The translations under genes were made by a program, and so were the position numbers. A stretch of DNA of 64,000 bases from the human T2T-CHM13v2.0 reference genome, Homo sapiens: NCBI RefSeq assembly GCF_009914755.1, contig NC_060943.1, one strand, 5' to 3'. Below are positions 2,530 through 58,345 of the stretch, one piece after another (the stretch's first letter is position 1; each line of letters opens with the position of its first letter). Under the pieces are notes generated by a model. It was not told the origin of the DNA, did not search any database, and saw nothing but the letters and a program-made list of their open reading frames with translations.

Positions 2530-2870
2530 TTGAGCAAACACATTAAAGAAAAGAAACGCAAATAGACGAAACTCATTTTAACATTTTTATTTAACCCAAG
2601 GAATACAGATATAATCAACACCAATACAATTGATGTCACAGTGATGACTAAGATACATGCTACAATCCTTCATTCTCAGATGCAAAATCTAGTATGTGTT
2701 TTACAGCAAACGTCAGTTGGAAACTGAACGTCGATCACACATGCTTGATGTGCATGTCAATTTCATGAGAGTTACAATCTCAGGAGAAGTCTCACATAGC
2801 GTAAGAGTCCAAACATACCTTCAAGTGTTTCGACAAGTTCTTCACTACTCATTCTTAGAACTGAATTTAC
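2530..2870 (+). mobile_element. MER33/Charlie5-like hAT DNA-transposon remnant; its 5' piece at about 1840-1880 is split off by two Alus
   Basis: cacattaaagaaaagaaac...cattttaacatttttatttaacccaa...aaatctagtatgtgttttacagc resembles recalled MER33. tgtatccagtagaaata at about 1843 resembles the terminus. Boundaries approximate. Confidence 0.6.
2586..2591 (-). promoter_or_regulatory. Candidate polyadenylation signal AATAAA for the PRR23D-like gene
   Basis: First canonical AATAAA I found on the minus strand, about 1.1 kb after the stop. Weaker variants (AATGAA about 3642, AATACA about 3416 and 3267) lie closer. Confidence 0.3.
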
Positions 2871-3069
2871 CAACAACAATCCCAGCCTATTCATTGCTGA
2901 ACTGCATCCCATTGAAAGAATGGGTCACAGTTCCTCTCTCTAGACACTGTGGAACGACATTGAAGGCCCTTCCATCTTTTGGCGATTGTGAGGACAGGTG
3001 CTAGAAGCCTCTGCCCTCAGCCTTGTCCACGTGAGTTCTAATTCCTTTAGAACAACTATCTCAGGGTGG

Positions 3070-3500
3070 GAAAGATGGTTCCAATGCTAAGTGCCTATTG
3101 CATTGATTATGAATCAATGAAACTCTTTCTCCCTGGGGGTTGTCCCAGTTGGATTCCAAGCAGCACTGTCAGAGTGTTCCAGCTTCTCCACATGCTCCGC
3201 AGCCCTTGGGATGGTGAGTGATTGTCACGGTGGCTTCTGGGAGAGCTTCTTGGTTGTGGTTGAAGGTGTATTTGACGTGCATTTCCCCAGGGGAGGGACA
3301 GTGAACGCTTTTTGAAGTGGTTCTTTACATCCCCTTTGAGGAAATGTCTGCTCAAGTCTCTGGCTGGGTTTTGAACAGAATCATTTGTTTGTCCCATTGG
3401 AGTTTTGACAACTCTGTGTATTCTGAGTATGAGCAGTCCTTGCACGTATATGAGATTTGCAAATATTTTGTGCCCCAATCTCAAGGTTGCTCTTTGATAC
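3070..3500 (-). mobile_element. Ancient L1 (L1M-type) ORF2 3' remnant; recurs in every unit
   Basis: The translation KIFANLIYVQGLLILRIH...TNDSVQNPARDLSRHFLKGDV aligns by eye with the L1 ORF2p C-terminal region KIFA..SDKGLISRIY...[21 protein letters not shown]. Confidence 0.8.
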
Positions 3501-3704
3501 AAATCAAGAGCATCTGAGGCAGAGCAAAGGTTCAGGTGAGAGGACGGAGCATTTCTCCACCTCTCCAGCATGCGCAGCATCTCTCTCCTCCGAGATGCCG
3601 AGACATGTGTGCAGGGAGACACCATGAAAAAGCAGGTGTGCTTCATTCTGAATAGAGCGTCTCTGATTCCCGTCTGGTGCCTGAGGGTGCATGGCCCATG
3701 AGCC

Positions 3705-6099
3705 TTAGAAGAGACGTCTTCGGGCCTTGCACGTTGGCCTCCATAGAAACTTGTGGCAAATTCTGGGCTCCGGACTGGGTGATGGAGGTAGAGGTCTGAG
3801 GGCAGAGGTGGGCAGGGGCTCCAGGCCGTGGAGATCCAAGTGGAATTCTTCAGGCAGAGCCTGTCTCCAGGGACTAGGCTTGGGCATTTGGGATGAGCCC
3901 TGGGGGACGGCCGCTCTGTAGTCAGGTTTGAGGTAGAGGACACGCCAGGAAGAAGGGCTGACTCCATGCACAAGGTTTGCTGGGGGTCCCATCAGGGGCA
4001 GGAAGCCTTGGGGAGCCTCACCCTCTTCTACTGAAGGCGCCACACACACATTCTCTGCTCTCTGGGCTCTCACAGATCCATTTTCAATGTCAATCTCCCA
4101 GACAGTCTCTGTACTAGTGAGCAGGAGCCAGCGGGCATGGGCAGGGTACAAGAGATCCTTCAGGGACATCAAGAGTTGCTCAGGGACCACCAGGAGCTGC
4201 ACATTGAGGAGGCTGAGTCGCAGGGCTCCCTGTGGGTCCAGCCCCAGGAACTCCTGCCCCAGGCGCAGGTGCAGGACCATTCCTGGTTCCAAGACCGCGA
4301 TGATCATCTTCCTCTGGGGAAGCTGTGGGCCCTGGGGGAGAAAAGCCGTGGGTCAGTCATTGTCCTCTGAGGGTGGCTCAAACAGGGAGAGAGCAAGGCG
4401 GGGAGCTGCCAGTAACTTCCCCAGGCATAAATGAAACCCCGCAGGGACACCCAGAATTGGCACCTGTATTGACGCCCCTTGGGACGGTGATTTCCTGCAA
4501 GTCCCCTAGGGCCTGGAGCTCAGGCAGACCTGTCTCACCCACGCCCACCTAGGTGGTGTGACCTTACCTGGGGCAGCTCCAGGGGCAGCTGTGCAGGGTG
4601 GTGGGGAGCTGGCTGTACCGGAGCTGGTTCTGCACCTGTGGAGAGAGCAGAGTGTGCAGGTGAAAGCCCTTGTCATGCAGGATGCCCTTGAGGGTTCAAG
4701 GTGCCACCGTGAGAAAGACCAAATACAGAAGAAGCCAGGTACAGGACACCCAGCCACGGAGCTGCAGGAGGAAGCTCCCGACACTCTGGACAGCACAGCT
4801 GCTCGCCTCATGACGTGACGGGACACTGGCTTGGTAGCAGGGGACTCAGGATGAAAAAGAGAAGATGCCTCACCTGGATGAGGACCCAGCTCCTCCACTT
4901 TCTGGCGTTTTGGGGCATTTGATGGCGTGCCGCTGGAGCTGTAGGACAGAGAGACACAGTCAGATTTCGGGCAGTTCCCTAACGTCCAATTCCCTGAATC
5001 CCCACAAATTCACTCCACTTCCCTGCCTTTCATTCAAGGCCACAGACTCGTCATCCACTTCCTGTGAGACCTGCTCCCAATCTGTCCTAACTCCCAGCTG
5101 TTCTTGTTCTCACCCCATCTACCTGAGCTTCCCTGGGTGAAGAAAAGGCAGGGAAGGAGGGTCGGTGCCCACAGGGAGCAGTTTACCCTTTCAGGAGCTC
5201 ATGCAGATGAGAGTTGGAAAACTCTCCTTGGGTGTGAGGAGCTGGAGAAAGATGTTGAGATCCCGGAGAGGTGGCACCTCTGTCTACACAGGTAACAAAG
5301 GAATGGGGTCTTAGGATTCGAATCACAGCAGGAGAAGAGGAAGGAATTTGTCGGGCATGACGGCATGCGCCTGTAATCCCAGCACTTTGGGAGGCCAAGG
5401 TCGGAGGATTGCTTGAGTCCAGGAGTTTGAGAGCAGCCTGGGCAACATGGTGAAAGCTAGTCTCCACTAAAAATACTAAACATTAGTGGGTCATGGTGGT
5501 GCATGCCTGTGGTCTCACCTACTCAGGAGGCTCAGGTGGGAGGATCACCTGCGACTCAGAGGTGGAGCCCGCAGTCAGCTAAAATCACGCCACTGCACTC
5601 CAGTGTGGACCATCGGAGTGAGACGCTGTCTCAATAAAATAAATCAGTAAATAAGACAAATAGAAAAATTAAAAATGAAAAAAGGAGGAAACTGTTTTAT
5701 TTTTCCTAGTAGATCTTGAAACTCTCACATCATGTCCTACAATCTCCCTTCTTGCAGAACACAGAACCCATTCCCTGTGGAGCTGGTTGGGTGGATTGAA
5801 AGTGGGGCTGCCCTGAGATATGTGTGTGGTTGCGATGTAGAAGCCTTCCCAGCACCCTGTGATGACTTACGGGCACCTCACTTCCCTCTGGCCCCAAATT
5901 CAAAACATCCAATCTCATGGCAGGTTCATGCACCCTTTTCCCTTCCCCTCTCTCCAACACACACCCACACATCCCACAGGCAGGTCACCCCGCAGGCGTC
6001 CCCAGCACATAGCAAAGCTCACCCGCTCTCTCCTGCGTGGTCGCTCTTGGATTCGGTGCAGGAATCACTGGGGCTTCTTGGGCGCCGGGAACCTTTCAT
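3705..6099 (-). CDS. PRR23D-like proline-rich protein, 278 aa, copy 1, intact; join(6099..6023, 4938..4874, 4635..4568, 4331..3705)
   Basis: ATG in ttcACCATGa context. Donors GG|GTGAGC, AG|GTGAGG, AG|GTAAGG; acceptors tctctctgtcctacAG, ctgctctctccacAG, cttttctcccccAG (branch-like CTGAC upstream of the last). Intron phases 2/1/0 all compatible, 837 nt, stop TAA. Recalled PRR23 family hallmarks: N-terminal RPRSP, PKR(Q)KV, LELPQ, hydrophobic VLE-x-G...L-x-L core, LEPLP...PLPPSPSP, terminal CKARRRLF. Confidence 0.85.
5349..5680 (+). mobile_element. Alu SINE (AluJ-like) in intron 1, antisense to the gene; recurs in units 1-8
   Basis: gcctgtaatcccagcactttgggaggccaagg...ggattgcttgagtccaggagtttgag...gccactgcactccag...gtctcaataaaataaa. 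Confidence 0.9.
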
Positions 6100-6319
6100 G
6101 GTGAAAATTTCCAGGGTTCTCCAAGTCAGCCACTGCCAGTGTTTGTCTGTCTCCTGCAAAGATTTCTTCTTGGCTCCCGAATCCTTTAGTTCCTTTGAGA
6201 GAGTGGTGTCAGCCCCAAAGCTGCTCCCGAAGGCTTGGGTTGTGTAGCGACGGGGCTGTGGCCAGCGGCAGGTGGACGAGGCTCCGACAACTGAGCTCTT
6301 GGGGGAATCTTGTACACTG

Positions 6320-6465
6320 TCAGCAGGGGGTGGAGCCAGGGGATTTGTCAGCAGGAACTGATGTGATTGGCTGTTCCTGGTATGACAACGGGAGGGGCCC
6401 TCATGGAGGATTGGGGCGTAACTCAATCCATAGATGACCGATCAACAGAACCTGCCTAATCCCAT
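6320..6465 (-). promoter_or_regulatory. Putative TATA-less proximal promoter of the PRR23D-like gene (present in units 1-8)
   Basis: On the minus strand, CAGCCAATCAC (plus 6363-6373, NF-Y CCAAT consensus) and a second CCAAT (about 6410-6414). GGGGTGGAGC Sp/KLF box at about 6327-6336. No minus-strand ATG in 6100-6300, consistent with a clean 5'UTR. The TSS cannot be determined from sequence. Confidence 0.45.
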
Positions 6466-6872
6466 CAAGAGCCAACCTGTTTCCTGTCCCCTCCCATCCT
6501 CTAGGTCTTGCCTAATAATGATAGACACTTTCTGTCATACCCAATTCATCCATCGCTGAAATAGTTTTTCATGTGTGCCTTTTATATTTTCATGCAATAA
6601 AAATATGTTAATTTTCACGGTGGCCATCCTGGGGAATGCTATGTACATGAAATGAAGTGTCAAAGGAGCAGAAGCAGAAGGAAATTCACAAGCTTCTCTG
6701 AGCGTCTCTGCTTCAATTCCTGCCATGTTTCCTAAATATGTTGGCTTCTTTCTTCCTACCCAAGTAAGAAGGTGCTTCAGAAGATCAATCTTATGGCATT
6801 TGACAAACCCTGCTGAGAATTTCAGGATGACACGAAGGAACCTTTGATTGGATTTGTGGATGTGCCTGTGAA

Positions 6873-6875
<3 letters not shown>

Positions 6876-6914
<39 letters not shown>
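6876..6914 (+). repeat. (GT)n microsatellite, variable between units
   Basis: (GT)19G here; 26 at 14333-14385; 24 at 21806-21854; 20 at 29268-29308; 24 at 36729-36777; 23 at 44194-44240; 21 at 51661-51703; interrupted 37-nt version at 59122-59158. Confidence 0.97.
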
Positions 6915-6916
<2 letters not shown>

Positions 6917-7004
6917 GCCAGGATGAAGTGGCTGTTCCTGGGGTGGAGACCCTTCTTTCTCTTGAGAATGTTCATTGCTGTTGACTCATTGTGGGTTTTG
7001 GAGA

Positions 7005-11161: not shown

Positions 11162-13556
11162 TTAGAAGAGACGTCTTCGGGCCTTGCACGTTGGCCTCCA
11201 TAGAAACTTGTGGCAAATTCTGGGCTCCGGACTGGGTGATGGAGGTAGAGGTCTGAGGGCAGAGGTGGGCAGGGGCTCCAGGCCGTGGAGATCCAAGTGG
11301 AATTCTTCAGGCAGAGCCTGTCTCCAGGGACTAGGCTTGGGCATTTGGGATGAGCCCTGGGGGACGGCCGCTCTGTAGTCAGGTTTGAGGTAGAGGACAC
11401 GCCAGGAAGAAGGGCTGACTCCATGCACAAGGTTTGCTGGGGGTCCCATCAGGGGCAGGAAGCCTTGGGGAGCCTCACCCTCTTCTACTGAAGGCGCCAC
11501 ACACACATTCTCTGCTCTCTGGGCTCTCACAGATCCATTTTCAATGTCAATCTCCCAGACAGTCTCTGTACTAGTGAGCAGGAGCCAGCGGGCATGGGCA
11601 GGGTACAAGAGATCCTTCAGGGACATCAAGAGTTGCTCAGGGACCACCAGGAGCTGCACATTGAGGAGGCTGAGTCGCAGGGCTCCCTGTGGGTCCAGCC
11701 CCAGGAACTCCTGCCCCAGGCGCAGGTGCAGGACCATTCCTGGTTCCAAGACCGCGATGATCATCTTCCTCTGGGGAAGCTGTGGGCCCTGGGGGAGAAA
11801 AGCCGTGGGTCAGTCATTGTCCTCTGAGGGTGGCTCAAACAGGGAGAGAGCAAGGCGGGGAGCTGCCAGTAACTTCCCCAGGCATAAATGAAACCCCGCA
11901 GGGACACCCAGAATTGGCACCTGTATTGACGCCCCTTGGGACGGTGATTTCCTGCAAGTCCCCTAGGGCCTGGAGCTCAGGCAGACCTGTCTCACCCACG
12001 CCCACCTAGGTGGTGTGACCTTACCTGGGGCAGCTCCAGGGGCAGCTGTGCAGGGTGGTGGGGAGCTGGCTGTACCGGAGCTGGTTCTGCACCTGTGGAG
12101 AGAGCAGAGTGTGCAGGTGAAAGCCCTTGTCATGCAGGATGCCCTTGAGGGTTCAAGGTGCCACCGTGAGAAAGACCAAATACAGAAGAAGCCAGGTACA
12201 GGACACCCAGCCACGGAGCTGCAGGAGGAAGCTCCCGACACTCTGGACAGCACAGCTGCTCGCCTCATGACGTGACGGGACACTGGCTTGGTAGCAGGGG
12301 ACTCAGGATGAAAAAGAGAAGATGCCTCACCTGGATGAGGACCCAGCTCCTCCACTTTCTGGCGTTTTGGGGCATTTGATGGCGTGCCGCTGGAGCTGTA
12401 GGACAGAGAGACACAGTCAGATTTCGGGCAGTTCCCTAACGTCCAATTCCCTGAATCCCCACAAATTCACTCCACTTCCCTGCCTTTCATTCAAGGCCAC
12501 AGACTCGTCATCCACTTCCTGTGAGACCTGCTCCCAATCTGTCCTAACTCCCAGCTGTTCTTGTTCTCACCCCATCTACCTGAGCTTCCCTGGGTGAAGA
12601 AAAGGCAGGGAAGGAGGGTCGGTGCCCACAGGGAGCAGTTTACCCTTTCAGGAGCTCATGCAGATGAGAGTTGGAAAACTCTCCTTGGGTGTGAGGAGCT
12701 GGAGAAAGATGTTGAGATCCCGGAGAGGTGGCACCTCTGTCTACACAGGTAACAAAGGAATGGGGTCTTAGGATTCGAATCACAGCAGGAGAAGAGGAAG
12801 GAATTTGTCGGGCATGACGGCATGCGCCTGTAATCCCAGCACTTTGGGAGGCCAAGGTCGGAGGATTGCTTGAGTCCAGGAGTTTGAGAGCAGCCTGGGC
12901 AACATGGTGAAAGCTAGTCTCCACTAAAAATACTAAACATTAGTGGGTCATGGTGGTGCATGCCTGTGGTCTCACCTACTCAGGAGGCTCAGGTGGGAGG
13001 ATCACCTGCGACTCAGAGGTGGAGCCCGCAGTCAGCTAAAATCACGCCACTGCACTCCAGTGTGGACCATCGGAGTGAGACGCTGTCTCAATAAAATAAA
13101 TCAGTAAATAAGACAAATAGAAAAATTAAAAATGAAAAAAGGAGGAAACTGTTTTATTTTTCCTAGTAGATCTTGAAACTCTCACATCATGTCCTACAAT
13201 CTCCCTTCTTGCAGAACACAGAACCCATTCCCTGTGGAGCTGGTTGGGTGGATTGAAAGTGGGGCTGCCCTGAGATATGTGTGTGGTTGCGATGTAGAAG
13301 CCTTCCCAGCACCCTGTGATGACTTACGGGCACCTCACTTCCCTCTGGCCCCAAATTCAAAACATCCAATCTCATGGCAGGTTCATGCACCCTTTTCCCT
13401 TCCCCTCTCTCCAACACACACCCACACATCCCACAGGCAGGTCACCCCGCAGGCGTCCCCAGCACATAGCAAAGCTCACCCGCTCTCTCCTGCGTGGTCG
13501 CTCTTGGATTCGGTGCAGGAATCACTGGGGCTTCTTGGGCGCCGGGAACCTTTCAT
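11162..13556 (-). CDS. PRR23D-like protein copy 2, intact; join(13556..13480, 12395..12331, 12092..12025, 11788..11162)
   Basis: Same exons and splice sites as copy 1; the 200-aa last-exon ORF 11162..11764 is identical. Confidence 0.85.
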
Positions 13557-18630: not shown

Positions 18631-21029
18631 TTAGAAGAGACGTCTTCGGGCCTTGCACGTTGGCCTCCATAGAAACTTGTGGCAAATTCTGGGCTCCGGA
18701 CTGGGTGATGGAGTTAGAGGTCTGAGGGCAGAGGTGGGCAGGGGCTCCAGGCCATGGAGATCCAAGTGGAATTCTTCAGGCAGAGCCTGTCTCCAGGGAC
18801 TAGGCTTGGGCATTTGGGATGAGCCCTGGGGGACGGCCGCTCTGTAGTCAGGTTTGAGGTAGAGGACACGCCAGGAAGAAGGGCTGACTCCATGCACAAG
18901 GTTTGCTGGGGGTCCCATCAGGGGCAGGAAGCCTTGGGGAGCCTCACCCTCTTCTACTGAAGGCGCCACACACACATTCTCTGCTCTCTGGGCTCTCACA
19001 GATCCATTTTCAATGTCAATCTCCCAGACAGTCTCTGTACTAGTGAGCAGGAGCCAGCGGGCATGGGCAGGGTACAAGAGATCCTTCAGGGACATCAAGA
19101 GTTGCTCAGGGACCACCAGGAGCTGCACATTGAGGAGGCTGAGTCGCAGGGCTCCCTGTGGGTCCAGCCCCAGGAACTCCTGCCCCAGGCGCAGGTGCAG
19201 GACCATTCCTGGTTCCAAGACCGCGATGATCATCTTCCTCTGGGGAAGCTGTGGGCCCTGGGGGAGAAAAGCCGTGGGTCAGTCATTGTCCTCTGAGGGT
19301 GGCTCAAACAGGGAGAGAGCAAGGCGGGGAGCTGCCAGTAACTTCCCCAGGCATAAATGAAACCCCGCAGGGACACCCAGAATTGGCACCTGTATTGACG
19401 CCCCTTGGGACGGTGATTTCCTGCAAGTCCCCTAGGGCCTGGAGCTCAGGCAGACCTGTCTCACCCACGCCCACCTAGGTGGTGTGACCTTACCTGGGGC
19501 AGCTCCAGGGGCAGCTGTGCAGGGTGGTGGGGAGCTGGCTGTACCGGAGCTGGTTCTGCACCTGTGGAGAGAGCAGAGTGTGCAGGTGAAAGCCCTTGTC
19601 ATGCAGGATGCCCTTGAGGGTTCAAGGTGCCACCGTGAGAAAGACCAAATACAGAAGAAGCCAGGTACAGGACACCCAGCCACGGAGCTGCAGGAGGAAG
19701 CTCCCGACACTCTGGACAGCACAGCTGCTCGCCTCATGACGTGACGGGACACTGGCTTGGTAGCAGGGGACTCAGGATGAAAAAGAGAAGATGCCTCACC
19801 TGGATGAGGACCCAGCTCCTCCACTTTCTGGCGTTTTGGGGCATTTGATGGCGTGCCGCTGGAGCTGTAGGACAGAGAGAGAGACACAGTCAGATTTCGG
19901 GCAGTTCCCTAACGTCCAATTCCCTGAATCCCCACAAATTCACTCCACTTCCCTGCCTTTCATTCAAGGCCACAGACTCGTCATCCACTTCCTGTGAGAC
20001 CTGCTCCCAATCTGTCCTAACTCCCAGCTGTTCTTGTTCTCACCCCATCTACCTGAGCTTCCCTGGGTGAAGAAAAGGCAGGGAAGGAGGGTCGGTGCCC
20101 ACAGGGAGCAGTTTACCCTTTCAGGAGCTCATGCAGATGAGAGTTGGAAAACTCTCCTTGGGTGTGAGGAGCTGGAGAAAGATGTTGAGATCCCGGAGAG
20201 GTGGCACCTCTGTCTACACAGGTAACAAAGGAATGGGGTCTTAGGATTCGAATCACAGCAGGAGAAGAGGAAGGAATTTGTCGGGCATGACGGCATGCGC
20301 CTGTAATCCCAGCACTTTGGGAGGCCAAGGTCGGAGGATTGCTTGAGTCCAGGAGTTTGAGAGCAGCCTGGGCAACATGGTGAAAGCTAGTCTCCACTAA
20401 AAATACTAAACATTAGTGGGTCATGGTGGTGCATGCCTGTGGTCTCACCTACTCAGGAGGCTCAGGTGGGAGGATCACCTGCGACTCAGAGGTGGAGCCC
20501 GCAGTCAGCTAAAATCACGCCACTGCACTCCAGTGTGGACCATCGGAGTGAGACGCTGTCTCAATAAAATAAATCAGTAAATAAGACAAATAGAAAAATT
20601 AAAAATGAAAAAAGGAGGAAACTGTTTTATTTTTCCTAGTAGATCTTGAAACTCTCACATCATGTCCTACAATCTCCCTTCTTGCAGAACACAGAACCCA
20701 TTCCCTGTGGAGCTGGTTGGGTGGATTGAAAGTGGGGCTGCCCTGAGATATGTGTGTGGTTGCGATGTAGAAGCCTTCCCAGCACCCTGTGATGACTTAC
20801 GGGCACCTCACTTCCCTCTGGCCCCAAATTCAAAACATCCAATCTCATGGCAGGTTCATGCACCCTTTTCCCTTCCCCTCTCTCCAACACACACCCACAC
20901 ATCCCACAGGCAGGTCACCCCGCAGGCGTCCCCAGCACATAGCAAAGCTCACCCGCTCTCTCCTGCGTGGTCGCTCTTGGATTCGGTGCAGGAATCACTG
21001 GGGCTTCTTGGGCGCCGGGAACCTTTCAT
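18631..21029 (-). CDS. PRR23D-like protein copy 3, intact, P252T; join(21029..20953, 19864..19800, 19561..19494, 19257..18631)
   Basis: Same structure; g>t at 18714 changes LPPSPSP to LTPSPSP. Confidence 0.85.
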
Positions 21030-26097: not shown

Positions 26098-28491
26098 TTA
26101 GAAGAGACGTCTTCGGGCCTTGCACGTTGGCCTCCATAGAAACTTGTGGCAAATTCTGGGCTCCGGACTGGGTGATGGAGGTAGAGGTCTGAGGGCAGAG
26201 GTGGGCAGGGGCTCCAGGCCGTGGAGATCCAAGTGGAATTCTTCAGGCAGAGCCTGTCTCCAGGGACTAGGCTTGGGCATTTGGGATGAGCCCTGGGGGA
26301 CGGCCGCTCTGTAGTCAGGTTTGAGGTAGAGGACACGCCAGGAAGAAGGGCTGACTCCATGCACAAGGTTTGCTGGGGGTCCCATCAGGGGCAGGAAGCC
26401 TTGGGGAGCCTCACCCTCTTCTACTGAAGGCGCCACACACACATTCTCTGCTCTCTGGGCTCTCACAGATCCATTTTCAATGTCAATCTCCCAGACAGTC
26501 TCTGTACTAGTGAGCAGGAGCCAGCGGGCATGGGCAGGGTACAAGAGATCCTTCAGGGACATCAGAGTTGCTCAGGGACCACCAGGAGCTGCACATTGAG
26601 GAGGCTGAGTCGCAGGGCTCCCTGTGGGTCCAGCCCCAGGAACTCCTGCCCCAGGCGCAGGTGCAGGACCATTCCTGGTTCCAAGACCGCGATGATCATC
26701 TTCCTCTGGGGAAGCTGTGGGCCCTGGGGGAGAAAAGCCGTGGGTCAGTCATTGTCCTCTGAGGGTGGCTCAAACAGGGAGAGAGCAAGGCGGGGAGCTG
26801 CCAGTAACTTCCCCAGGCATAAATGAAACCCCGCAGGGACACCCAGAATTGGCACCTGTATTGACGCCCCTTGGGACGGTGATTTCCTGCAAGTCCCCTA
26901 GGGCCTGGAGCTCAGGCAGACCTGTCTCACCCACGCCCACCTAGGTGGTGTGACCTTACCTGGGGCAGCTCCAGGGGCAGCTGTGCAGGGTGGTGGGGAG
27001 CTGGCTGTACCGGAGCTGGTTCTGCACCTGTGGAGAGAGCAGAGTGTGCAGGTGAAAGCCCTTGTCATGCAGGATGCCCTTGAGGGTTCAAGGTGCCACC
27101 GTGAGAAAGACCAAATACAGAAGAAGCCAGGTACAGGACACCCAGCCACGGAGCTGCAGGAGGAAGCTCCCGACACTCTGGACAGCACAGCTGCTCGCCT
27201 CATGACGTGACGGGACACTGGCTTGGTAGCAGGGGACTCAGGATGAAAAAGAGAAGATGCCTCACCTGGATGAGGACCCAGCTCCTCCACTTTCTGGCGT
27301 TTTGGGGCATTTGATGGCGTGCCGCTGGAGCTGTAGGACAGAGAGACACAGTCAGATTTCGGGCAGTTCCCTAACGTCCAATTCCCTGAATCCCCACAAA
27401 TTCACTCCACTTCCCTGCCTTTCATTCAAGGCCACAGACTCGTCATCCACTTCCTGTGAGACCTGCTCCCAATCTGTCCTAACTCCCAGCTGTTCTTGTT
27501 CTCACCCCATCTACCTGAGCTTCCCTGGGTGAAGAAAAGGCAGGGAAGGAGGGTCGGTGCCCACAGGGAGCAGTTTACCCTTTCAGGAGCTCATGCAGAT
27601 GAGAGTTGGAAAACTCTCCTTGGGTGTGAGGAGCTGGAGAAAGATGTTGAGATCCCGGAGAGGTGGCACCTCTGTCTACACAGGTAACAAAGGAATGGGG
27701 TCTTAGGATTCGAATCACAGCAGGAGAAGAGGAAGGAATTTGTCGGGCATGACGGCATGCGCCTGTAATCCCAGCACTTTGGGAGGCCAAGGTCGGAGGA
27801 TTGCTTGAGTCCAGGAGTTTGAGAGCAGCCTGGGCAACATGGTGAAAGCTAGTCTCCACTAAAAATACTAAACATTAGTGGGTCATGGTGGTGCATGCCT
27901 GTGGTCTCACCTACTCAGGAGGCTCAGGTGGGAGGATCACCTGCGACTCAGAGGTGGAGCCCGCAGTCAGCTAAAATCACGCCACTGCACTCCAGTGTGG
28001 ACCATCGGAGTGAGACGCTGTCTCAATAAAATAAATCAGTAAATAAGACAAATAGAAAAATTAAAAATGAAAAAAGGAGGAAACTGTTTTATTTTTCCTA
28101 GTAGATCTTGAAACTCTCACATCATGTCCTACAATCTCCCTTCTTGCAGAACACAGAACCCATTCCCTGTGGAGCTGGTTGGGTGGATTGAAAGTGGGGC
28201 TGCCCTGAGATATGTGTGTGGTTGCGATGTAGAAGCCTTCCCAGCACCCTGTGATGACTTACGGGCACCTCACTTCCCTCTGGCCCCAAATTCAAAACAT
28301 CCAATCTCATGGCAGGTTCATGCACCCTTTTCCCTTCCCCTCTCTCCAACACACACCCACACATCCCACAGGCAGGTCACCCCGCAGGCGTCCCCAGCAC
28401 ATAGCAAAGCTCACCCGCTCTCTCCTGCGTGGTCGCTCTTGGATTCGGTGCAGGAATCACTGGGGCTTCTTGGGCGCCGGGAACCTTTCAT
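26098..28491 (-). pseudogene. PRR23D-like copy 4, frameshifted/truncated (123 aa); exons 28491..28415, 27330..27266, 27027..26960, 26723..26098
   Basis: Reads gggacatcagagttg versus gggacatcaagagttg in all other units. This 1-bp deletion near 26564 turns CTC TTG ATG into CTC TGA (stop at 26564..26562). Confidence 0.8.
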
Positions 28492-33553: not shown

Positions 33554-35952
33554 TTAGAAGAGACGTCTTCGGGCCTTGCACGTTGGCCTCCATAGAAACT
33601 TGTGGCAAATTCTGGGCTCCGGACTGGGTGATGGAGTTAGAGGTCTGAGGGCAGAGGTGGGCAGGGGCTCCAGGCCATGGAGATCCAAGTGGAATTCTTC
33701 AGGCAGAGCCTGTCTCCAGGGACTAGGCTTGGGCATTTGGGATGAGCCCTGGGGGACGGCCGCTCTGTAGTCAGGTTTGAGGTAGAGGACACGCCAGGAA
33801 GAAGGGCTGACTCCATGCACAAGGTTTGCTGGGGGTCCCATCAGGGGCAGGAAGCCTTGGGGAGCCTCACCCTCTTCTACTGAAGGCGCCACACACACAT
33901 TCTCTGCTCTCTGGGCTCTCACAGATCCATTTTCAATGTCAATCTCCCAGACAGTCTCTGTACTAGTGAGCAGGAGCCAGCGGGCATGGGCAGGGTACAA
34001 GAGATCCTTCAGGGACATCAAGAGTTGCTCAGGGACCACCAGGAGCTGCACATTGAGGAGGCTGAGTCGCAGGGCTCCCTGTGGGTCCAGCCCCAGGAAC
34101 TCCTGCCCCAGGCGCAGGTGCAGGACCATTCCTGGTTCCAAGACCGCGATGATCATCTTCCTCTGGGGAAGCTGTGGGCCCTGGGGGAGAAAAGCCGTGG
34201 GTCAGTCATTGTCCTCTGAGGGTGGCTCAAACAGGGAGAGAGCAAGGCGGGGAGCTGCCAGTAACTTCCCCAGGCATAAATGAAACCCCGCAGGGACACC
34301 CAGAATTGGCACCTGTATTGACGCCCCTTGGGACGGTGATTTCCTGCAAGTCCCCTAGGGCCTGGAGCTCAGGCAGACCTGTCTCACCCACGCCCACCTA
34401 GGTGGTGTGACCTTACCTGGGGCAGCTCCAGGGGCAGCTGTGCAGGGTGGTGGGGAGCTGGCTGTACCGGAGCTGGTTCTGCACCTGTGGAGAGAGCAGA
34501 GTGTGCAGGTGAAAGCCCTTGTCATGCAGGATGCCCTTGAGGGTTCAAGGTGCCACCGTGAGAAAGACCAAATACAGAAGAAGCCAGGTACAGGACACCC
34601 AGCCACGGAGCTGCAGGAGGAAGCTCCCGACACTCTGGACAGCACAGCTGCTCGCCTCATGACGTGACGGGACACTGGCTTGGTAGCAGGGGACTCAGGA
34701 TGAAAAAGAGAAGATGCCTCACCTGGATGAGGACCCAGCTCCTCCACTTTCTGGCGTTTTGGGGCATTTGATGGCGTGCCGCTGGAGCTGTAGGACAGAG
34801 AGAGAGACACAGTCAGATTTCGGGCAGTTCCCTAACGTCCAATTCCCTGAATCCCCACAAATTCACTCCACTTCCCTGCCTTTCATTCAAGGCCACAGAC
34901 TCGTCATCCACTTCCTGTGAGACCTGCTCCCAATCTGTCCTAACTCCCAGCTGTTCTTGTTCTCACCCCATCTACCTGAGCTTCCCTGGGTGAAGAAAAG
35001 GCAGGGAAGGAGGGTCGGTGCCCACAGGGAGCAGTTTACCCTTTCAGGAGCTCATGCAGATGAGAGTTGGAAAACTCTCCTTGGGTGTGAGGAGCTGGAG
35101 AAAGATGTTGAGATCCCGGAGAGGTGGCACCTCTGTCTACACAGGTAACAAAGGAATGGGGTCTTAGGATTCGAATCACAGCAGGAGAAGAGGAAGGAAT
35201 TTGTCGGGCATGACGGCATGCGCCTGTAATCCCAGCACTTTGGGAGGCCAAGGTCGGAGGATTGCTTGAGTCCAGGAGTTTGAGAGCAGCCTGGGCAACA
35301 TGGTGAAAGCTAGTCTCCACTAAAAATACTAAACATTAGTGGGTCATGGTGGTGCATGCCTGTGGTCTCACCTACTCAGGAGGCTCAGGTGGGAGGATCA
35401 CCTGCGACTCAGAGGTGGAGCCCGCAGTCAGCTAAAATCACGCCACTGCACTCCAGTGTGGACCATCGGAGTGAGACGCTGTCTCAATAAAATAAATCAG
35501 TAAATAAGACAAATAGAAAAATTAAAAATGAAAAAAGGAGGAAACTGTTTTATTTTTCCTAGTAGATCTTGAAACTCTCACATCATGTCCTACAATCTCC
35601 CTTCTTGCAGAACACAGAACCCATTCCCTGTGGAGCTGGTTGGGTGGATTGAAAGTGGGGCTGCCCTGAGATATGTGTGTGGTTGCGATGTAGAAGCCTT
35701 CCCAGCACCCTGTGATGACTTACGGGCACCTCACTTCCCTCTGGCCCCAAATTCAAAACATCCAATCTCATGGCAGGTTCATGCACCCTTTTCCCTTCCC
35801 CTCTCTCCAACACACACCCACACATCCCACAGGCAGGTCACCCCGCAGGCGTCCCCAGCACATAGCAAAGCTCACCCGCTCTCTCCTGCGTGGTCGCTCT
35901 TGGATTCGGTGCAGGAATCACTGGGGCTTCTTGGGCGCCGGGAACCTTTCAT
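33554..35952 (-). CDS. PRR23D-like protein copy 5, intact, P252T; join(35952..35876, 34787..34723, 34484..34417, 34180..33554)
   Basis: Same structure; shares the g>t variant (33637) with copy 3. Confidence 0.85.
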
Positions 35953-41022: not shown

Positions 41023-43417
41023 TTAGAAGAGACGTCTTCGGGCCTTGCACGTTGGCCTCCATAGAAACTTGTGGCAAATTCTGGGCTCCGGACTGGGTGA
41101 TGGAGGTAGAGGTCTGAGGGCAGAGGTGGGCAGGGGCTCCAGGCCGTGGAGATCCAAGTGGAATTCTTCAGGCAGAGCCTGTCTCCAGGGACTAGGCTTG
41201 GGCATTTGGGATGAGCCCTGGGGGACGGCCGCTCTGTAGTCAGGTTTGAGGTAGAGGACACGCCAGGAAGAAGGGCTGACTCCATGCACAAGGTTTGCTG
41301 GGGGTCCCATCAGGGGCAGGAAGCCTTGGGGAGCCTCACCCTCTTCTACTGAAGGCGCCACACACACATTCTCTGCTCTCTGGGCTCTCACAGATCCATT
41401 TTCAATGTCAATCTCCCAGACAGTCTCTGTACTAGTGAGCAGGAGCCAGCGGGCATGGGCAGGGTACAAGAGATCCTTCAGGGACATCAAGAGTTGCTCA
41501 GGGACCACCAGGAGCTGCACATTGAGGAGGCTGAGTCGCAGGGCTCCCTGTGGGTCCAGCCCCAGGAACTCCTGCCCCAGGCGCAGGTGCAGGACCATTC
41601 CTGGTTCCAAGACCGCGATGATCATCTTCCTCTGGGGAAGCTGTGGGCCCTGGGGGAGAAAAGCCGTGGGTCAGTCATTGTCCTCTGAGGGTGGCTCAAA
41701 CAGGGAGAGAGCAAGGCGGGGAGCTGCCAGTAACTTCCCCAGGCATAAATGAAACCCCGCAGGGACACCCAGAATTGGCACCTGTATTGACGCCCCTTGG
41801 GACGGTGATTTCCTGCAAGTCCCCTAGGGCCTGGAGCTCAGGCAGACCTGTCTCACCCACGCCCACCTAGGTGGTGTGACCTTACCTGGGGCAGCTCCAG
41901 GGGCAGCTGTGCAGGGTGGTGGGGAGCTGGCTGTACCGGAGCTGGTTCTGCACCTGTGGAGAGAGCAGAGTGTGCAGGTGAAAGCCCTTGTCATGCAGGA
42001 TGCCCTTGAGGGTTCAAGGTGCCACCGTGAGAAAGACCAAATACAGAAGAAGCCAGGTACAGGACACCCAGCCACGGAGCTGCAGGAGGAAGCTCCCGAC
42101 ACTCTGGACAGCACAGCTGCTCGCCTCATGACGTGACGGGACACTGGCTTGGTAGCAGGGGACTCAGGATGAAAAAGAGAAGATGCCTCACCTGGATGAG
42201 GACCCAGCTCCTCCACTTTCTGGCGTTTTGGGGCATTTGATGGCGTGCCGCTGGAGCTGTAGGACAGAGAGACACAGTCAGATTTCGGGCAGTTCCCTAA
42301 CGTCCAATTCCCTGAATCCCCACAAATTCACTCCACTTCCCTGCCTTTCATTCAAGGCCACAGACTCGTCATCCACTTCCTGTGAGACCTGCTCCCAATC
42401 TGTCCTAACTCCCAGCTGTTCTTGTTCTCACCCCATCTACCTGAGCTTCCCTGGGTGAAGAAAAGGCAGGGAAGGAGGGTCGGTGCCCACAGGGAGCAGT
42501 TTACCCTTTCAGGAGCTCATGCAGATGAGAGTTGGAAAACTCTCCTTGGGTGTGAGGAGCTGGAGAAAGATGTTGAGATCCCGGAGAGGTGGCACCTCTG
42601 TCTACACAGGTAACAAAGGAATGGGGTCTTAGGATTCGAATCACAGCAGGAGAAGAGGAAGGAATTTGTCGGGCATGACGGCATGCGCCTGTAATCCCAG
42701 CACTTTGGGAGGCCAAGGTCGGAGGATTGCTTGAGTCCAGGAGTTTGAGAGCAGCCTGGGCAACATGGTGAAAGCTAGTCTCCACTAAAAATACTAAACA
42801 TTAGTGGGTCATGGTGGTGCATGCCTGTGGTCTCACCTACTCAGGAGGCTCAGGTGGGAGGATCACCTGCGACTCAGAGGTGGAGCCCGCAGTCAGCTAA
42901 AATCACGCCACTGCACTCCAGTGTGGACCATCGGAGTGAGACGCTGTCTCAATAAAATAAATCAGTAAATAAGACAAATAGAAAAATTAAAAATGAAAAA
43001 AGGAGGAAACTGTTTTATTTTTCCTAGTAGATCTTGAAACTCTCACATCATGTCCTACAATCTCCCTTCTTGCAGAACACAGAACCCATTCCCTGTGGAG
43101 CTGGTTGGGTGGATTGAAAGTGGGGCTGCCCTGAGATATGTGTGTGGTTGCGATGTAGAAGCCTTCCCAGCACCCTGTGATGACTTACGGGCACCTCACT
43201 TCCCTCTGGCCCCAAATTCAAAACATCCAATCTCATGGCAGGTTCATGCACCCTTTTCCCTTCCCCTCTCTCCAACACACACCCACACATCCCACAGGCA
43301 GGTCACCCCGCAGGCGTCCCCAGCACATAGCAAAGCTCACCCGCTCTCTCCTGCGTGGTCGCTCTTGGATTCGGTGCAGGAATCACTGGGGCTTCTTGGG
43401 CGCCGGGAACCTTTCAT
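41023..43417 (-). CDS. PRR23D-like protein copy 6, intact; join(43417..43341, 42256..42192, 41953..41886, 41649..41023)
   Basis: Same exons and splice sites; last-exon ORF identical to copy 1. Confidence 0.85.
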
Positions 43418-48485: not shown

Positions 48486-50884
<2,399 letters not shown>

Positions 50885-55946: not shown

Positions 55947-58345
55947 TTAGAAGAGACGTCTTCGGGCCTTGCACGTTGGCCTCCATAGAAACTTGTGGCA
56001 AATTCTGGGCTCCGGACTGGGTGATGGAGGTAGAGGTCTGAGGGCAGAGGTGGGCAGGGGCTCCAGGCCGTGGAGATCCAAGTGGAATTCTTCAGGCAGA
56101 GCCTGTCTCCAGGGACTAGGCTTGGGCATTTGGGATGAGCCCTGGGGGACGGCCGCTCTGTAGTCAGGTTTGAGGTAGAGGACACGCCAGGAAGAAGGGC
56201 TGACTCCATGCACAAGGTTTGCTGGGGGTCCCATCAGGGGCAGGAAGCCTTGGGGAGCCTCACCCTCTTCTACTGAAGGCGCCACACACACATTCTCTGC
56301 TCTCTGGGCTCTCACAGATCCATTTTCAATGTCAATCTCCCAGACAGTCTCTGTACTAGTGAGCAGGAGCCAGCGGGCATGGGCAGGGTACAAGAGATCC
56401 TTCAGGGACATCAAGAGTTGCTCAGGGACCACCAGGAGCTGCACATTGAGGAGGCTGAGTCGCAGGGCTCCCTGTGGGTCCAGCCCCAGGAACTCCTGCC
56501 CCAGGCGCAGGTGCAGGACCATTCCTGGTTCCAAGACCGCGATGATCATCTTCCTCTGGGGAAGCTGTGGGCCCTGGGGGAGAAAAGCCGTGGGTCAGTC
56601 ATTGTCCTCTGAGGGTGGCTCAAACAGGGAGAGAGCAAGGCGGGGAGCTGCCAGTAACTTCCCCAGGCATAAATGAAACCCCGCAGGGACACCCAGAATT
56701 GGCACCTGTATTGACGCCCCTTGGGACGGTGATTTCCTGCAAGTCCCCTAGGGCCTGGAGCTCAGGCAGACCTGTCTCACCCACGCCCACCTAGGTGGTG
56801 TGACCTTACCTGGGGCAGCTCCAGGGGCAGCTGTGCAGGGTGGTGGGGAGCTGGCTGTACCGGAGCTGGTTCTGCACCTGTGGAGAGAGCAGAGTGTGCA
56901 GGTGAAAGCCCTTGTCATGCAGGATGCCCTTGAGGGTTCAAGGTGCCACCGTGAGAAAGACCAAATACAGAAGAAGCCAGGTACAGGACACCCAGCCACG
57001 GAGCTGCAGGAGGAAGCTCCCGACACTCTGGACAGCACAGCTGCTCGCCTCATGACGTGACGGGACACTGGCTTGGTAGCAGGGGACTCAGGATGAAAAA
57101 GAGAAGATGCCTCACCTGGATGAGGACCCAGCTCCTCCACTTTCTGGCGTTTTGGGGCATTTGATGGCGTGCCGCTGGAGCTGTAGGACAGAGAGAGAGA
57201 CACAGTCAGATTTCGGGCAGTTCCCTAACGTCCAATTCCCTGAATCCCCACAAATTCACTCCACTTCCCTGCCTTTCATTCAAGGCCACAGACTCGTCAT
57301 CCACTTCCTGTGAGACCTGCTCCCAATCTGTCCTAACTCCCAGCTGTTCTTGTTCTCACCCCATCTACCTGAGCTTCCCTGGGTGAAGAAAAGGCAGGGA
57401 AGGAGGGTCGGTGCCCACAGGGAGCAGTTTACCCTTTCAGGAGCTCATGCAGATGAGAGTTGGAAAACTCTCCTTGGGTGTGAGGAGCTGGAGAAAGATG
57501 TTGAGATCCCGGAGAGGTGGCACCTCTGTCTACACAGGTAACAAAGGAATGGGGTCTTAGGATTCGAATCACAGCAGGAGAAGAGGAAGGAATTTGTCGG
57601 GCATGACGGCATGCGCCTGTAATCCCAGCACTTTGGGAGGCCAAGGTCGGAGGATTGCTTGAGTCCAGGAGTTTGAGAGCAGCCTGGGCAACATGGTGAA
57701 AGCTAGTCTCCACTAAAAATACTAAACATTAGTGGGTCATGGTGGTGCATGCCTGTGGTCTCACCTACTCAGGAGGCTCAGGTGGGAGGATCACCTGCGA
57801 CTCAGAGGTGGAGCCCGCAGTCAGCTAAAATCACGCCACTGCACTCCAGTGTGGACCATCGGAGTGAGACGCTGTCTCAATAAAATAAATCGGTAAATAA
57901 GACAAATAGAAAAATTAAAAATGAAAAAAGGAGGAAACTGTTTTATTTTTCCTAGTAGATCTTGAAACTCTCACATCATGTCCTACAATCTCCCTTCTTG
58001 CAGAACACAGAACCCATTCCCTGTGGAGCTGGTTGGGTGGATTGAAAGTGGGGCTGCCCTGAGATATGTGTGTGGTTGCGATGTAGAAGCCTTCCCAGCA
58101 CCCTGTGATGACTTACGGGCACCTCACTTCCCTCTGGCCCCAAATTCAAAACATCCAATCTCATGGCAGGTTCATGCACCCTTTTCCCTTCCCCTCTCTC
58201 CAACACACACCCACACATCCCACAGGCAGGTCACCCCGCAGGCGTCCCCAGCACATAGCAAAGCTCACCCGCTCTCTCCTGCGTGGTCGCTCTTGGATTC
58301 GGTGCAGGAATCACTGGGGCTTCTTGGGCGCCGGGAACCTTTCAT
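55947..58345 (-). CDS. PRR23D-like protein copy 8, intact; join(58345..58269, 57180..57116, 56877..56810, 56573..55947)
   Basis: Same exons and splice sites; last-exon ORF identical to copy 1. Confidence 0.85.

What the first reader, a model, noticed from the sequence alone, without database searches (positions are those of the whole stretch)
3705..6099. A hidden four-exon, 278-aa PRR23D-like gene in every repeat unit
Seen: minus-strand segments 6099-6023, 4938-4874, 4635-4568 and 4331-3705 each have canonical GT/AG boundaries with polypyrimidine tracts, and their phases (2, 1, 0) join into one 837-nt [90 protein letters not shown]...CKARRRLF*. Recalled: human PRR23D1 is about 279 aa with collinear motifs (RRLRSPRDS, PKRRQVE, LELPQ, IVLEQG, PMPPSPSP, RARRCLF), and PRR23A-C end near CKARRRLF. 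Inference: this is a distinct, substantially diverged PRR23D paralog rather than PRR23D1/D2. The ORF track misses it because it is spliced. It may already exist as an uncharacterised LOC model.
Basis: partly seen in the sequence, partly recalled or inferred. Interest (0 to 1): 0.9.

Follow-up and report, generated by a model that had tools for sequence, protein, structure and literature searches.

The report
Hidden PRR23-family gene in macrosatellite
Each 7.46-kb unit of a human chromosome 19 tandem repeat, so far treated as non-coding DNA that regulates the neighbouring gene ZNF558, carries a complete four-exon gene of the little-known PRR23 protein family.

Summary
The four minus-strand segments have canonical AG/GT boundaries and join to 837 nt, or 278 aa. 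The last exon matches Pfam DUF2476, the PRR23 family, at E=1e-22.

"Every unit" is slightly overstated. The ORF is intact in 7 of 8 complete copies in the window and in 21 of 22 across the CHM13 array. One copy has a 1-nt deletion.

The strongest new evidence is an old processed retrocopy on chrX. It runs without gaps across all three predicted junctions, from the 5'UTR to just past an AATAAA signal. This mRNA was therefore spliced and polyadenylated in an ancestral germ line.

A marmoset model named "PRR23D1-like" gives the same exon join. In a tree the gene falls in its own clade, sister to chr8 PRR23D at 38% identity. It shares exon sizes and a CCAAT-box promoter with PRR23D.

The array is the published MSat12 / ZNF558 VNTR, described as non-coding.

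Not shown: present-day human expression, translation or function. Evidence for constraint is moderate (dN/dS 0.61 against the retrocopy).

Verdict: a real, unannotated human member of a known family.

The parts
6290..6480 (-). Proximal promoter of copy 1, conserved with the chr8 PRR23D promoter. It includes an invariant CCAAT box (AGCCAATCA) at 6372-6364.
   Evidence: Positions 6480-6289 are 123/188 identical to chr8, and the block 6372-6290 is 58/83 identical. The 5'UTR stretch 6288-6097 is only 82/187 identical. There is no CpG island.
6023..6177 (-). Exon 1 of copy 1. The 5'UTR reaches at least 6177, where the retrocopy begins, and the true start is probably near 6290. ATG is at 6099, the coding part is 6099-6023 (77 nt), and the donor is GT.
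   Evidence: There is no upstream ATG in 6177-6100 and the reading frame has no earlier Met.
4874..4938 (-). Exon 2 of copy 1 (65 nt).
   Evidence: The chrX retrocopy crosses both of its junctions without a gap.
4568..4635 (-). Exon 3 of copy 1 (68 nt), ending in ...LELPQ.
   Evidence: The chr8 PRR23D exon has the same 68-nt length.
3705..4331 (-). Coding part of exon 4 of copy 1 (208 codons plus stop). This is the DUF2476 core.
   Evidence: PF10630, 82.1 bits, profile positions 59-259 of 259.
2573..3704 (-). 3'UTR of copy 1 (about 1.13 kb). AATAAA lies at 2591-2586 and a T/GT-rich stretch follows it.
   Evidence: Homology with the retrocopy runs to about 2576 and is followed on chrX by an A-rich remnant.
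11162..13556 (-). Copy 2, stop codon to ATG. Intact, protein identical to copy 1.
18631..21029 (-). Copy 3. Intact, with P252T and one synonymous change.
26098..28491 (-). Copy 4. A 1-nt deletion in exon 4 shifts the frame and gives a stop at codon 124.
33554..35952 (-). Copy 5. Intact, with P252T and one synonymous change.
41023..43417 (-). Copy 6. Intact, identical.
48486..50884 (-). Copy 7. Intact, identical.
55947..58345 (-). Copy 8. Intact, identical.
63405..64000 (-). Ninth copy. Its exon 4 is cut by the end of the window and is identical as far as it can be seen.

Best explanation
SHOWN. Each 7.46-kb unit of the chr19p13.2 macrosatellite (published as MSat12 and as the ZNF558 VNTR) is a complete transcription unit on the minus strand. 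It has a CCAAT-box promoter shared with PRR23D, four exons, a 278-codon ORF, a 1.1-kb 3'UTR and an AATAAA signal. The product belongs to the PRR23/DUF2476 family. It forms a lineage of its own, sister to PRR23D1/D2, and other mammals carry orthologues labelled 'PRR23D1-like'. The mRNA was made, spliced at exactly these junctions and polyadenylated in an ancestral germ line, because a processed copy of it was inserted on chrX.

INFERRED. The array is still a multicopy protein-coding gene in humans: 22 copies in CHM13, 21 of them intact. It is probably expressed only in germ cells or the male reproductive tract, like its paralogues, and kept silent elsewhere by the H3K9me3 heterochromatin reported over the array. 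The protein has three parts.
- A basic Ser/Pro-rich N-terminus with a KRQK nuclear-localisation-like motif.
- A beta-sandwich core of about 130 residues.
- A disordered acidic, proline-rich tail carrying the two most conserved family motifs, [10 protein letters not shown] and a C-terminal KARRRLF.

From recall rather than any test, I read the tail as Ser-Pro phospho-acceptor sites plus an RxL-type cyclin-docking motif. On that reading the protein is a nuclear substrate or adaptor of a cyclin-CDK.
For: GENE ANATOMY
- Searches give the exons and the ORF.
- Pfam PF10630 scores 82.1 bits against a 27-bit cut-off.
- 21 of 22 array copies are intact and all 22 keep every splice dinucleotide.

RETROCOPY
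- chrX locus L046 is colinear with the joined exons across all three junctions, with no gap.
- It runs from window position 6177 to about 2576, some 10-15 nt past the AATAAA at 2591-2586, and is followed by an A-rich remnant.
- A whole-genome DNA search found only the 22 array copies plus this one.

INDEPENDENT EXON JOINS
- The marmoset protein P0006 and the unnamed primate entry P0013 start with the same exon 1-3 product. Marmoset is 59/70 identical over exons 1-3.

CONSTRAINT
- Against the retrocopy, CDS K2P is 0.195, compared with 0.270 for the 3'UTR.
- dN/dS is 0.61 (dS 0.277, dN 0.170).
- The chrX copy carries 4 frameshifting indels in the CDS; the chr19 consensus carries none.
- Three-way residue comparison: retrocopy-unique 45, marmoset-unique 31, human-unique 17, out of 261 sites.
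- Open reading frames also exist in siamang, marmoset, tree shrew and bat.

PROMOTER
- 65% identity with the chr8 PRR23D upstream region against 44% in the 5'UTR, with an invariant CCAAT box.

FAMILY MOTIFS AND FOLD
- The human protein keeps all near-invariant residues of the family.
- AlphaFold2 gives an all-beta core at pLDDT 86-91 and a disordered tail.

PARALOGUE EXPRESSION AND CHROMATIN
- PRR23A-C are described as testis- and spermatogonia-specific, and PRR23D2 as epididymis-specific (PMC7436996, passages read).
- H3K9me3 and some transcription over the VNTR are reported in bioRxiv 10.1101/2020.08.18.255562 (passages read).
Against: - I could reach no human RNA, ribosome-profiling or peptide data, so present-day expression is untested.
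- RefSeq annotates no gene here in CHM13 (hub table).
- Variation among the units shows no coding signature. Variable columns are 5/837 in CDS, 14/1558 in introns and 124/5062 in the rest of the unit.
- The CDS variants are 3 missense, 1 synonymous and 1 frameshift.
- Amino-acid change since the gibbon split looks near-neutral or faster. There are 27 differences in 208 residues against siamang, of which 8 are human-unique, 11 siamang-unique and 9 unresolved.
- CpG observed/expected is low throughout, 0.0-0.56 around the gene. That fits long-term germline methylation.
- dN/dS of 0.61 could partly reflect an early functional period of the retrocopy.
- The fold search gave nothing above noise: best Z 5.0, with no Foldseek hit at E<=0.001. 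The proposed molecular role rests on short motifs only.
Confidence: 0.6

Rival explanations
1. The array is a set of dying gene copies. The ancestral gene was functional, but the human copies are silent relics. Their frames look intact only because the units were amplified and homogenised recently from one intact template.
For: - Units are 99.3-99.7% identical, so 21 intact copies are not 21 independent observations.
- The CDS is no less variable than the introns.
- Among-unit CDS variants are 3 missense, 1 synonymous and 1 frameshift.
- Amino-acid divergence in hominoids is about neutral.
- H3K9me3 covers the array.
- RefSeq has no model here (hub table).
- The unnamed primate entry P0013 is frameshifted.
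Against: - The consensus frame has stayed open over the same time in which the neutral chrX retrocopy gained 4 frameshifts.
- dN/dS is 0.61, and the CDS is less diverged than the UTRs.
- All six splice sites and the AATAAA are kept.
- The promoter is conserved with PRR23D.
- Open frames exist in siamang, marmoset, tree shrew and bat.
Confidence: 0.27
2. The unit matters only as DNA or as non-coding RNA. It acts as a copy-number-dependent heterochromatin block, with an associated lncRNA that tunes ZNF558. The PRR23-like ORF is irrelevant to that role.
For: - ZNF558 expression falls as copy number rises (PMC4063668, passages read).
- CRISPRi on the VNTR silences ZNF558, and a lncRNA antisense to ZNF558 is reported (bioRxiv 10.1101/2020.08.18.255562, passages read).
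- The array lies distal to and downstream of ZNF558, so I infer that this lncRNA is on the plus strand, opposite the gene described here.
Against: This does not exclude a coding role; the two can coexist. It leaves unexplained the conserved ORF, splice sites, promoter and orthologues in species with very different array sizes.
Confidence: 0.1
3. The four-exon ORF is a chance assembly of open frames and splice-like sites.
For: None beyond the general ease of finding AG/GT pairs.
Against: Pfam E=1e-22. The retrocopy crosses all three junctions. The marmoset protein is colinear with the join. PRR23D has the same exon sizes.
Confidence: 0.01

Closest known systems
PRR23D1/PRR23D2 (three chr8 loci in CHM13: L043, L044, L045)
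   Same: - Both match Pfam DUF2476.
- Both are multi-exon, with a 77-nt first coding exon, a 68-nt third exon ending in LELPQ, and a large last exon.
- The N-terminal RRxRSP motif and the C-terminal ARRxLF motif are shared.
- The CCAAT-box promoter block is conserved.
- The two clades are sisters with 100/100 support.
   Different: - Only 38% identity over exon 4.
- The chr19 gene sits in a separate clade.
- It is carried in a 22-copy tandem array, whereas PRR23D lies in the 8p23.1 duplications.
- The TATA-like TATAAG of the chr8 promoter is absent on chr19.
'Proline-rich protein 23D1-like' gene models of siamang, marmoset, tree shrew and a bat (P0001, P0006, P0010/P0012, P0009)
   Same: These fall in the same clade as the chr19 gene and are probably its orthologues. 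Identity over exon 4 is 87% (siamang), 73% (marmoset) and 49-55% (tree shrew, bat). The marmoset model has the same exon 1-3 product.
   Different: Those are annotated by NCBI. The human gene is not annotated in RefSeq for CHM13 (hub table). Whether they also lie in tandem arrays could not be checked here.
PRR23A/B/C (three chr3 loci)
   Same: Same Pfam family, scoring 380-406 bits, and the same conserved motifs.
   Different: They are intronless, with the whole protein in one alignment block at 30-31% identity, and form the outgroup clade.
Macrosatellites with a gene in each unit (D4Z4/DUX4 is the best-known case; this comparison is from my own knowledge)
   Same: A kb-scale, copy-number-variable, heterochromatic tandem array in which each unit holds a complete ORF. 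Array size also affects a neighbouring gene.
   Different: - The gene here is spliced and every unit has its own AATAAA.
- No DUX4-type binding motif was found in the window: 0 matches against 0.42 expected.
- No disease link is known.
MSat12 / ZNF558 VNTR (PMC4063668; bioRxiv 10.1101/2020.08.18.255562)
   Same: This is the same DNA: a 7.46-kb unit at 19p13.2 next to ZNF558. The CHM13 haplotype has 22 units. The preprint reports mean diploid copy numbers of 24-43 in humans.
   Different: The passages I read treat the array as non-coding. They describe a macrosatellite and a putative lncRNA, with no mention of an ORF or of PRR23.

Membership tests
PRR23 family / Pfam PF10630 (DUF2476) | Match to the family profile above Pfam's gathering score | tested here: met
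   82.1 bits against a 27-bit cut-off, E=1e-22, profile positions 59-259 of 259, from exon 4 alone.
PRR23 family / Pfam PF10630 (DUF2476) | Family-wide conserved motifs: hydrophobic beta core, [10 protein letters not shown], and C-terminal K/R-A-R-R-x-L-F | tested here: met
   The human protein keeps every column that is at least 90% conserved: L14, L20, L22, L24, L29, L31, P33, L37, G85, S176, L178, P182, S184, P185, P187, P189 and L207.
PRR23 family / Pfam PF10630 (DUF2476) | N-terminal part of the profile (positions 1-58) encoded by exons 1-3 | tested here: inconclusive
   The joined human protein could not be handed to the Pfam tool. The colinear marmoset protein matches profile positions 3-227. 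The chrX retrocopy N-terminus (122 aa) matched no family.
PRR23D-type gene structure | Four coding exons with the same intron positions as PRR23D | tested here: met
   chr8 exon 1 is 77 nt and exon 3 is 68 nt, with the same boundaries. The chr8 counterpart of exon 2 was not located.
PRR23D1/D2 proper (orthology) | Groups inside the chr8 PRR23D clade | tested here: not met
   The chr8 clade has 100/99 support and excludes the chr19 gene, which sits in a separate clade with 84/86 support. Identity is 38%.
Expressed protein-coding gene | Spliced, polyadenylated mRNA | tested here: met
   Met for an ancestral germ line only. The chrX processed retrocopy crosses all three junctions and ends just after the AATAAA. 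Present-day human expression cannot be tested with these tools.
Expressed protein-coding gene | Purifying selection on the coding sequence | tested here: inconclusive
   In favour: dN/dS of 0.61 against the retrocopy, and 0 against 4 frameshifts. Against: near-neutral amino-acid change in hominoids and no coding signature among the units.
Processed retrocopy (the chrX locus) | Intronless and colinear with the mRNA, with a poly(A) tail and target-site duplications | tested here: inconclusive
   Colinearity is clear. Only a short A-rich remnant follows the 3' end, and I could not identify convincing target-site duplications.
FHA-like beta-sandwich | Structural match well above background | tested here: inconclusive
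   Best hit is Z 5.0, rmsd 2.2 over 63 residues, to 5fwh_A, with several FHA rows at Z 3-5. That is below the level the tool calls meaningful. Foldseek found nothing at E<=0.001.

The most novel reading that the evidence does not exclude
The macrosatellite known for switching ZNF558 on in the human brain lineage is primarily a multicopy, copy-number-variable, germline-expressed protein-coding gene array. The preprint reports mean diploid copy numbers of 24-43 in humans and more than 70 in chimpanzee, bonobo and gorilla.

On this reading the heterochromatin over the array exists to silence this gene in somatic cells, much as at D4Z4/DUX4. The effect on ZNF558 would be a by-product. The human-specific contraction would also have cut the dosage of a fast-evolving reproductive protein by half or more.
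Probability: 0.3. Interest if true: 0.8.

Novelty: new member of a known kind. Interest (0 to 1): 0.6.

Why it matters
This array is discussed as a non-coding regulatory repeat. Its shortening in humans has been linked to ZNF558 expression in forebrain progenitors.

If each unit also encodes a protein, three things follow.
- Copy-number differences between people and between apes are also gene-dosage differences.
- Experiments that silence or resize the array perturb a second gene.
- Standard annotation and unique-mapping RNA-seq would have missed a human gene with 20 or more copies.

It also adds a third lineage to the uncharacterised PRR23 family. The chrX retrocopy serves as a ready-made neutral comparator for that lineage.

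Tried and rejected
STRUCTURE AND HOMOLOGY SEARCHES THAT GAVE NO LEAD
- DUX4-type motif (TAAYYBAATCA, recalled): 0 matches in the window against 0.42 expected. There is no sign of DUX4 control.
- CpG island at the promoter: none.
- PDB search by sequence with the family profile: 0 hits at E<=1.
- Foldseek against PDB: nothing at E<=0.001.
- VIA-align wide: best Z 5.0, FHA-like, which is below the tool's noise level.
- ESM Atlas: it did not hold the human sequence. With the bat homologue it returned only the family itself and rows at TM 0.3 or lower.

COMPARISONS THAT WERE NOT INFORMATIVE
- Unit-to-unit diversity as a test of constraint: the CDS is no lower than the introns.
- The distal edge unit keeps the gene part near-identical and diverges only further upstream. 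That marks the array edge and is not evidence of selection.

LITERATURE
- No paper connecting PRR23 with this repeat was found in any of six searches: PRR23 (64 papers, 40 listed); ZNF558+VNTR (12); PRR23/macrosatellite/tandem repeat/VNTR/DUF2476; 23D1-like/PRR23D (22); ZNF558/macrosatellite/T2T; DUF2476/PF10630/PRR23E/PRR23F/PRR23D3 (3).
- The symbol PRR23E exists, but I could not learn where that gene lies.

CLOSED OR LIMITED TOOLS
- The own genome cannot be searched with an alignment.
The strand of ZNF558 is therefore inferred from the papers' wording.

NOT RUN
- I sent no complex-prediction job.
Full report
**1. The observation**

I read the minus strand of window 3600-6250 and recomputed the joins.

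| Exon | Coordinates | Length | Boundaries |
|---|---|---|---|
| 1 | 6099-6023 | 77 nt | ATG in caccATGa; donor GG\|gtgagc |
| 2 | 4938-4874 | 65 nt | acceptor tctgtcctacag\|C; donor CAG\|gtgagg |
| 3 | 4635-4568 | 68 nt | acceptor ctctctccacag\|G; donor CAG\|gtaagg |
| 4 | 4331-3705 | 627 nt | acceptor ttctcccccag\|G; stop TAA |

The frame upstream of the ATG holds no earlier Met, and there is no ATG in 6177-6100. Exon 4 alone (208 aa) matches Pfam PF10630 (DUF2476, the PRR23 family) at 82.1 bits against a 27-bit cut-off, E=1e-22, covering profile positions 59-259 of 259. So this is not a chance ORF.

**2. Copies**

- *In the window.* The gene region recurs every 7457-7473 bases: 8 complete copies and a cut ninth. 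Exons 1-3 with 12 nt of flank are identical in 8 of 8. Exon 4 is identical in 5 of 8, has two substitutions in 2, and has a 1-nt deletion in 1. The ORF is therefore intact in 7 of 8. Copy 4 (exon 4 at 26723-26098) stops at codon 124.
- *In the whole array.* I fetched the flanks from the window's own genome. The array runs from about chr19:8,736,169 to 8,901,206 in CHM13. It has 21 full units and one truncated distal unit, with degenerate partial pieces on both sides.
- *State of the 22 copies.* All 22 keep every GT/AG, and 21 of 22 have an open 278-codon frame. Thirteen encode the identical protein, six carry P252T, one carries A176V, one carries A211V, and one is frameshifted.

**3. What the array is**

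The unit length (7.46 kb), the position (19p13.2 between OR2Z1 and ZNF558) and the copy number identify it as a published repeat.

- It is MSat12 of Brahmachary et al. 2014 (PMC4063668, passages read).
- It is also the "ZNF558 VNTR" of Johansson et al. (bioRxiv 10.1101/2020.08.18.255562, passages read).
- These papers report that ZNF558 expression falls as copy number rises.
- The preprint reports mean diploid copy numbers of 24-43 in humans and more than 70 in chimpanzee, bonobo and gorilla.
- They also report that the array carries H3K9me3, that there is some transcription within it in human neural progenitors, and that a putative lncRNA runs antisense to ZNF558.
- In the passages I read, neither paper mentions an ORF or PRR23.
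- The array lies distal to and "downstream" of ZNF558. I therefore infer that ZNF558 is on the minus strand, that the gene described here has the same orientation, and that the reported lncRNA is antisense to it. I could not fetch the ZNF558 region to check this.

**4. Independent proof of the splicing**

A Pfam search of the whole CHM13 genome gave 29 DUF2476 matches: chr3 x3, chr19 x22, chr8 x3 and chrX x1. The chrX locus (L046) is a processed copy of the chr19 mRNA.

- The joined 278-aa protein aligns to it colinearly at 62-72% identity, with frame shifts.
- At the DNA level it aligns to window 6177-6025, 4941-4871, 4639-4567 and 4340-2808 as one contiguous block.
- The alignment passes straight through all three predicted junctions without a gap.
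- A more sensitive alignment extends the 3' homology to about window 2576. That is 10-15 nt beyond the first canonical AATAAA after the stop codon, at 2591-2586.
- On chrX an A-rich remnant follows this point. On chr19 a T/GT-rich stretch follows it.
- A genome-wide DNA search with exon 4 plus the 3'UTR found the 22 array copies, this chrX copy and one weak 129-nt hit, and nothing else.
- The chrX copy holds only fragmentary ORFs of 158 and 143 aa.

This shows that an mRNA with exactly these junctions and this poly(A) site existed in a germ line.

**5. Age and constraint**

*Against the retrocopy:*
- K2P distance is 0.195 in the CDS, 0.270 in the 3'UTR and 0.378 in the 78 aligned 5'UTR bases.
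- dS is 0.277, dN is 0.170 and dN/dS is 0.61.
- The chrX copy has four frameshifting indels and one 3-nt deletion in the CDS. The chr19 consensus has none.

*Three-way residue patterns, human / marmoset / retrocopy:*
- 151 sites are identical in all three. 45 are retrocopy-unique, 31 marmoset-unique, 17 human-unique and 17 differ in all three.
- So the retrocopy is about as old as, or older than, the human-marmoset split, and the human lineage changed more slowly than the retrocopy.

*Evidence pointing the other way:*
- Human against siamang differs at 27 of 208 residues, with 8 human-unique, 11 siamang-unique and 9 unresolved. By my own rough estimate this is at or above the neutral expectation for that split, and I cannot explain it without ape DNA.
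- Among the 21 full units, variable columns number 5/837 in CDS, 14/1558 in introns and 124/5062 elsewhere.
- The CDS variants are three missense, one synonymous and one frameshift.
- The units are 99.3-99.7% alike, so their intact frames are not independent observations.

Overall, long-term maintenance of the frame is well supported. Constraint on the amino-acid sequence is moderate at best, as is common for reproductive genes.

**6. Relatives**

- The exon-4 protein found 18 proteins in the word-indexed library. Those with names are all "proline-rich protein 23D1-like": siamang at 87%, marmoset at 69% (73%), a bat at 55%, and tree shrew at 49-50%. No entry carried a human name.
- The 267-aa marmoset protein starts with the same exon 1-3 product, 59/70 identical. 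An unnamed primate entry (P0013) also does, although its C-terminal half is frameshifted.
- A full HMMER pass over 1.84 billion representatives found only 35 relatives at E<=0.001. The family is small.
- A maximum-likelihood tree of 29 rows gives three clades. One is chr3 and relatives. One is chr8 PRR23D and relatives, with 100/99 support. The third has 16 rows and 84/86 support, and holds the chr19 gene with siamang, marmoset, tree shrew and bat. The last two clades are sisters at 100/100.
- The chr8 gene has a 77-nt first coding exon and a 68-nt third exon with the same boundaries. The chr3 genes are intronless.

**7. Promoter**

- Upstream of the ATG, chr19 and chr8 align at 123/188 (65%) over window 6480-6289. 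That includes an invariant AGCCAATCA at 6372-6364 and a block of 58/83 at 6372-6290.
- The 5'UTR stretch 6288-6097 aligns at only 82/187, or 44%.
- This points to a shared proximal promoter and a start site near 6290. The retrocopy, which starts at about 6177, would then be 5'-truncated.
- There is no CpG island, and CpG observed/expected is low.
- No DUX4-type motif is present.

**8. The protein**

- The family alignment shows five conserved features: an N-terminal basic Ser/Pro motif, a KRQK-type basic patch, a hydrophobic beta-rich core, an acidic EEGEAP patch, and [10 protein letters not shown] followed by a C-terminal KARRRLF. The last two are the most conserved.
- The human protein keeps all near-invariant columns.
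- AlphaFold2 on this alignment gave mean pLDDT 64 and pTM 0.51. The model has a confident all-beta core: residues 8-91 plus strand 131-138 of the exon-4 product, at pLDDT 86-91. The tail is disordered.
- No solved relative was found by sequence or by Foldseek.
- The best VIA-align match is Z 5.0 to an FHA domain, below the tool's own noise level. The Atlas gave no lead.
- My working model is a nuclear protein whose tail carries Ser-Pro phospho-sites and an RxL-type cyclin-docking motif. This rests on recalled motif definitions and is untested.
- Paralogues are described as testis- and spermatogonia-specific (PRR23A-C) and epididymis-specific (PRR23D2) in PMC7436996 (passages read).

**9. Novelty and what stays open**

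- None of my six literature searches found a paper linking PRR23 to this repeat.
- RefSeq for CHM13 has no gene anywhere in the array, according to the hub's table.
- I could not consult GENCODE/Ensembl or HGNC. The symbol PRR23E exists, but I could not find its locus.
- I file this as a new, unannotated human member of a known family. It is carried in an unusual vehicle: a copy-number-variable macrosatellite already famous for a non-coding role.
- Present-day expression, translation and function in humans are not shown.

Noticed in passing
L046 2633-4661 (CHM13 chrX:126,468,633-126,470,661, minus strand): An old processed retrocopy of the chr19 PRR23-like mRNA. It is 77-83% identical at the DNA level, has four frameshifting indels, and holds only fragmentary ORFs of 158 and 143 aa. 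It is useful as a neutral comparator. I do not know whether it carries a gene symbol.
   Followed up: yes
window 6493-6975 and the same place in each unit: This is the most variable part of the unit: 1-20 differences from consensus per 500 columns. It contains a (CA)n-type run, seen as HTHTHT... in the ORF listing.
   Followed up: partly
chr19:8,901,811-8,903,530 and 8,732,480-8,734,396 (outside the window; L041, L031): At the distal edge of the array lies a partial unit in inverted orientation, 90% identical, covering unit positions 4194-5920. A direct partial piece of the same part (90%) lies before the proximal edge. Neither contains the gene.
   Followed up: no
L043 253-836 and L045 253-785 (chr8, about 3 kb downstream of the PRR23D last exon): A second, frameshifted DUF2476-like fragment, 28% identical to residues 80-260 of the chr19 protein. 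It is probably a decayed tandem PRR23D duplicate.
   Followed up: no
window 5359-5650 and 2235-2516: Alu elements lie inside intron 1 (antisense to the gene) and just downstream of the poly(A) site. They recur in every unit and account for part of the masked stretches in the hub's list.
   Followed up: no
exon 4, all copies (compared with P0001 and P0003): Human differs from siamang and from an unnamed primate protein at 27 of 208 residues each. This seems at or above the neutral expectation for such close species. It might reflect positive selection, a raised mutation rate in the array, or homogenisation of different ancestral variants.
   Followed up: partly
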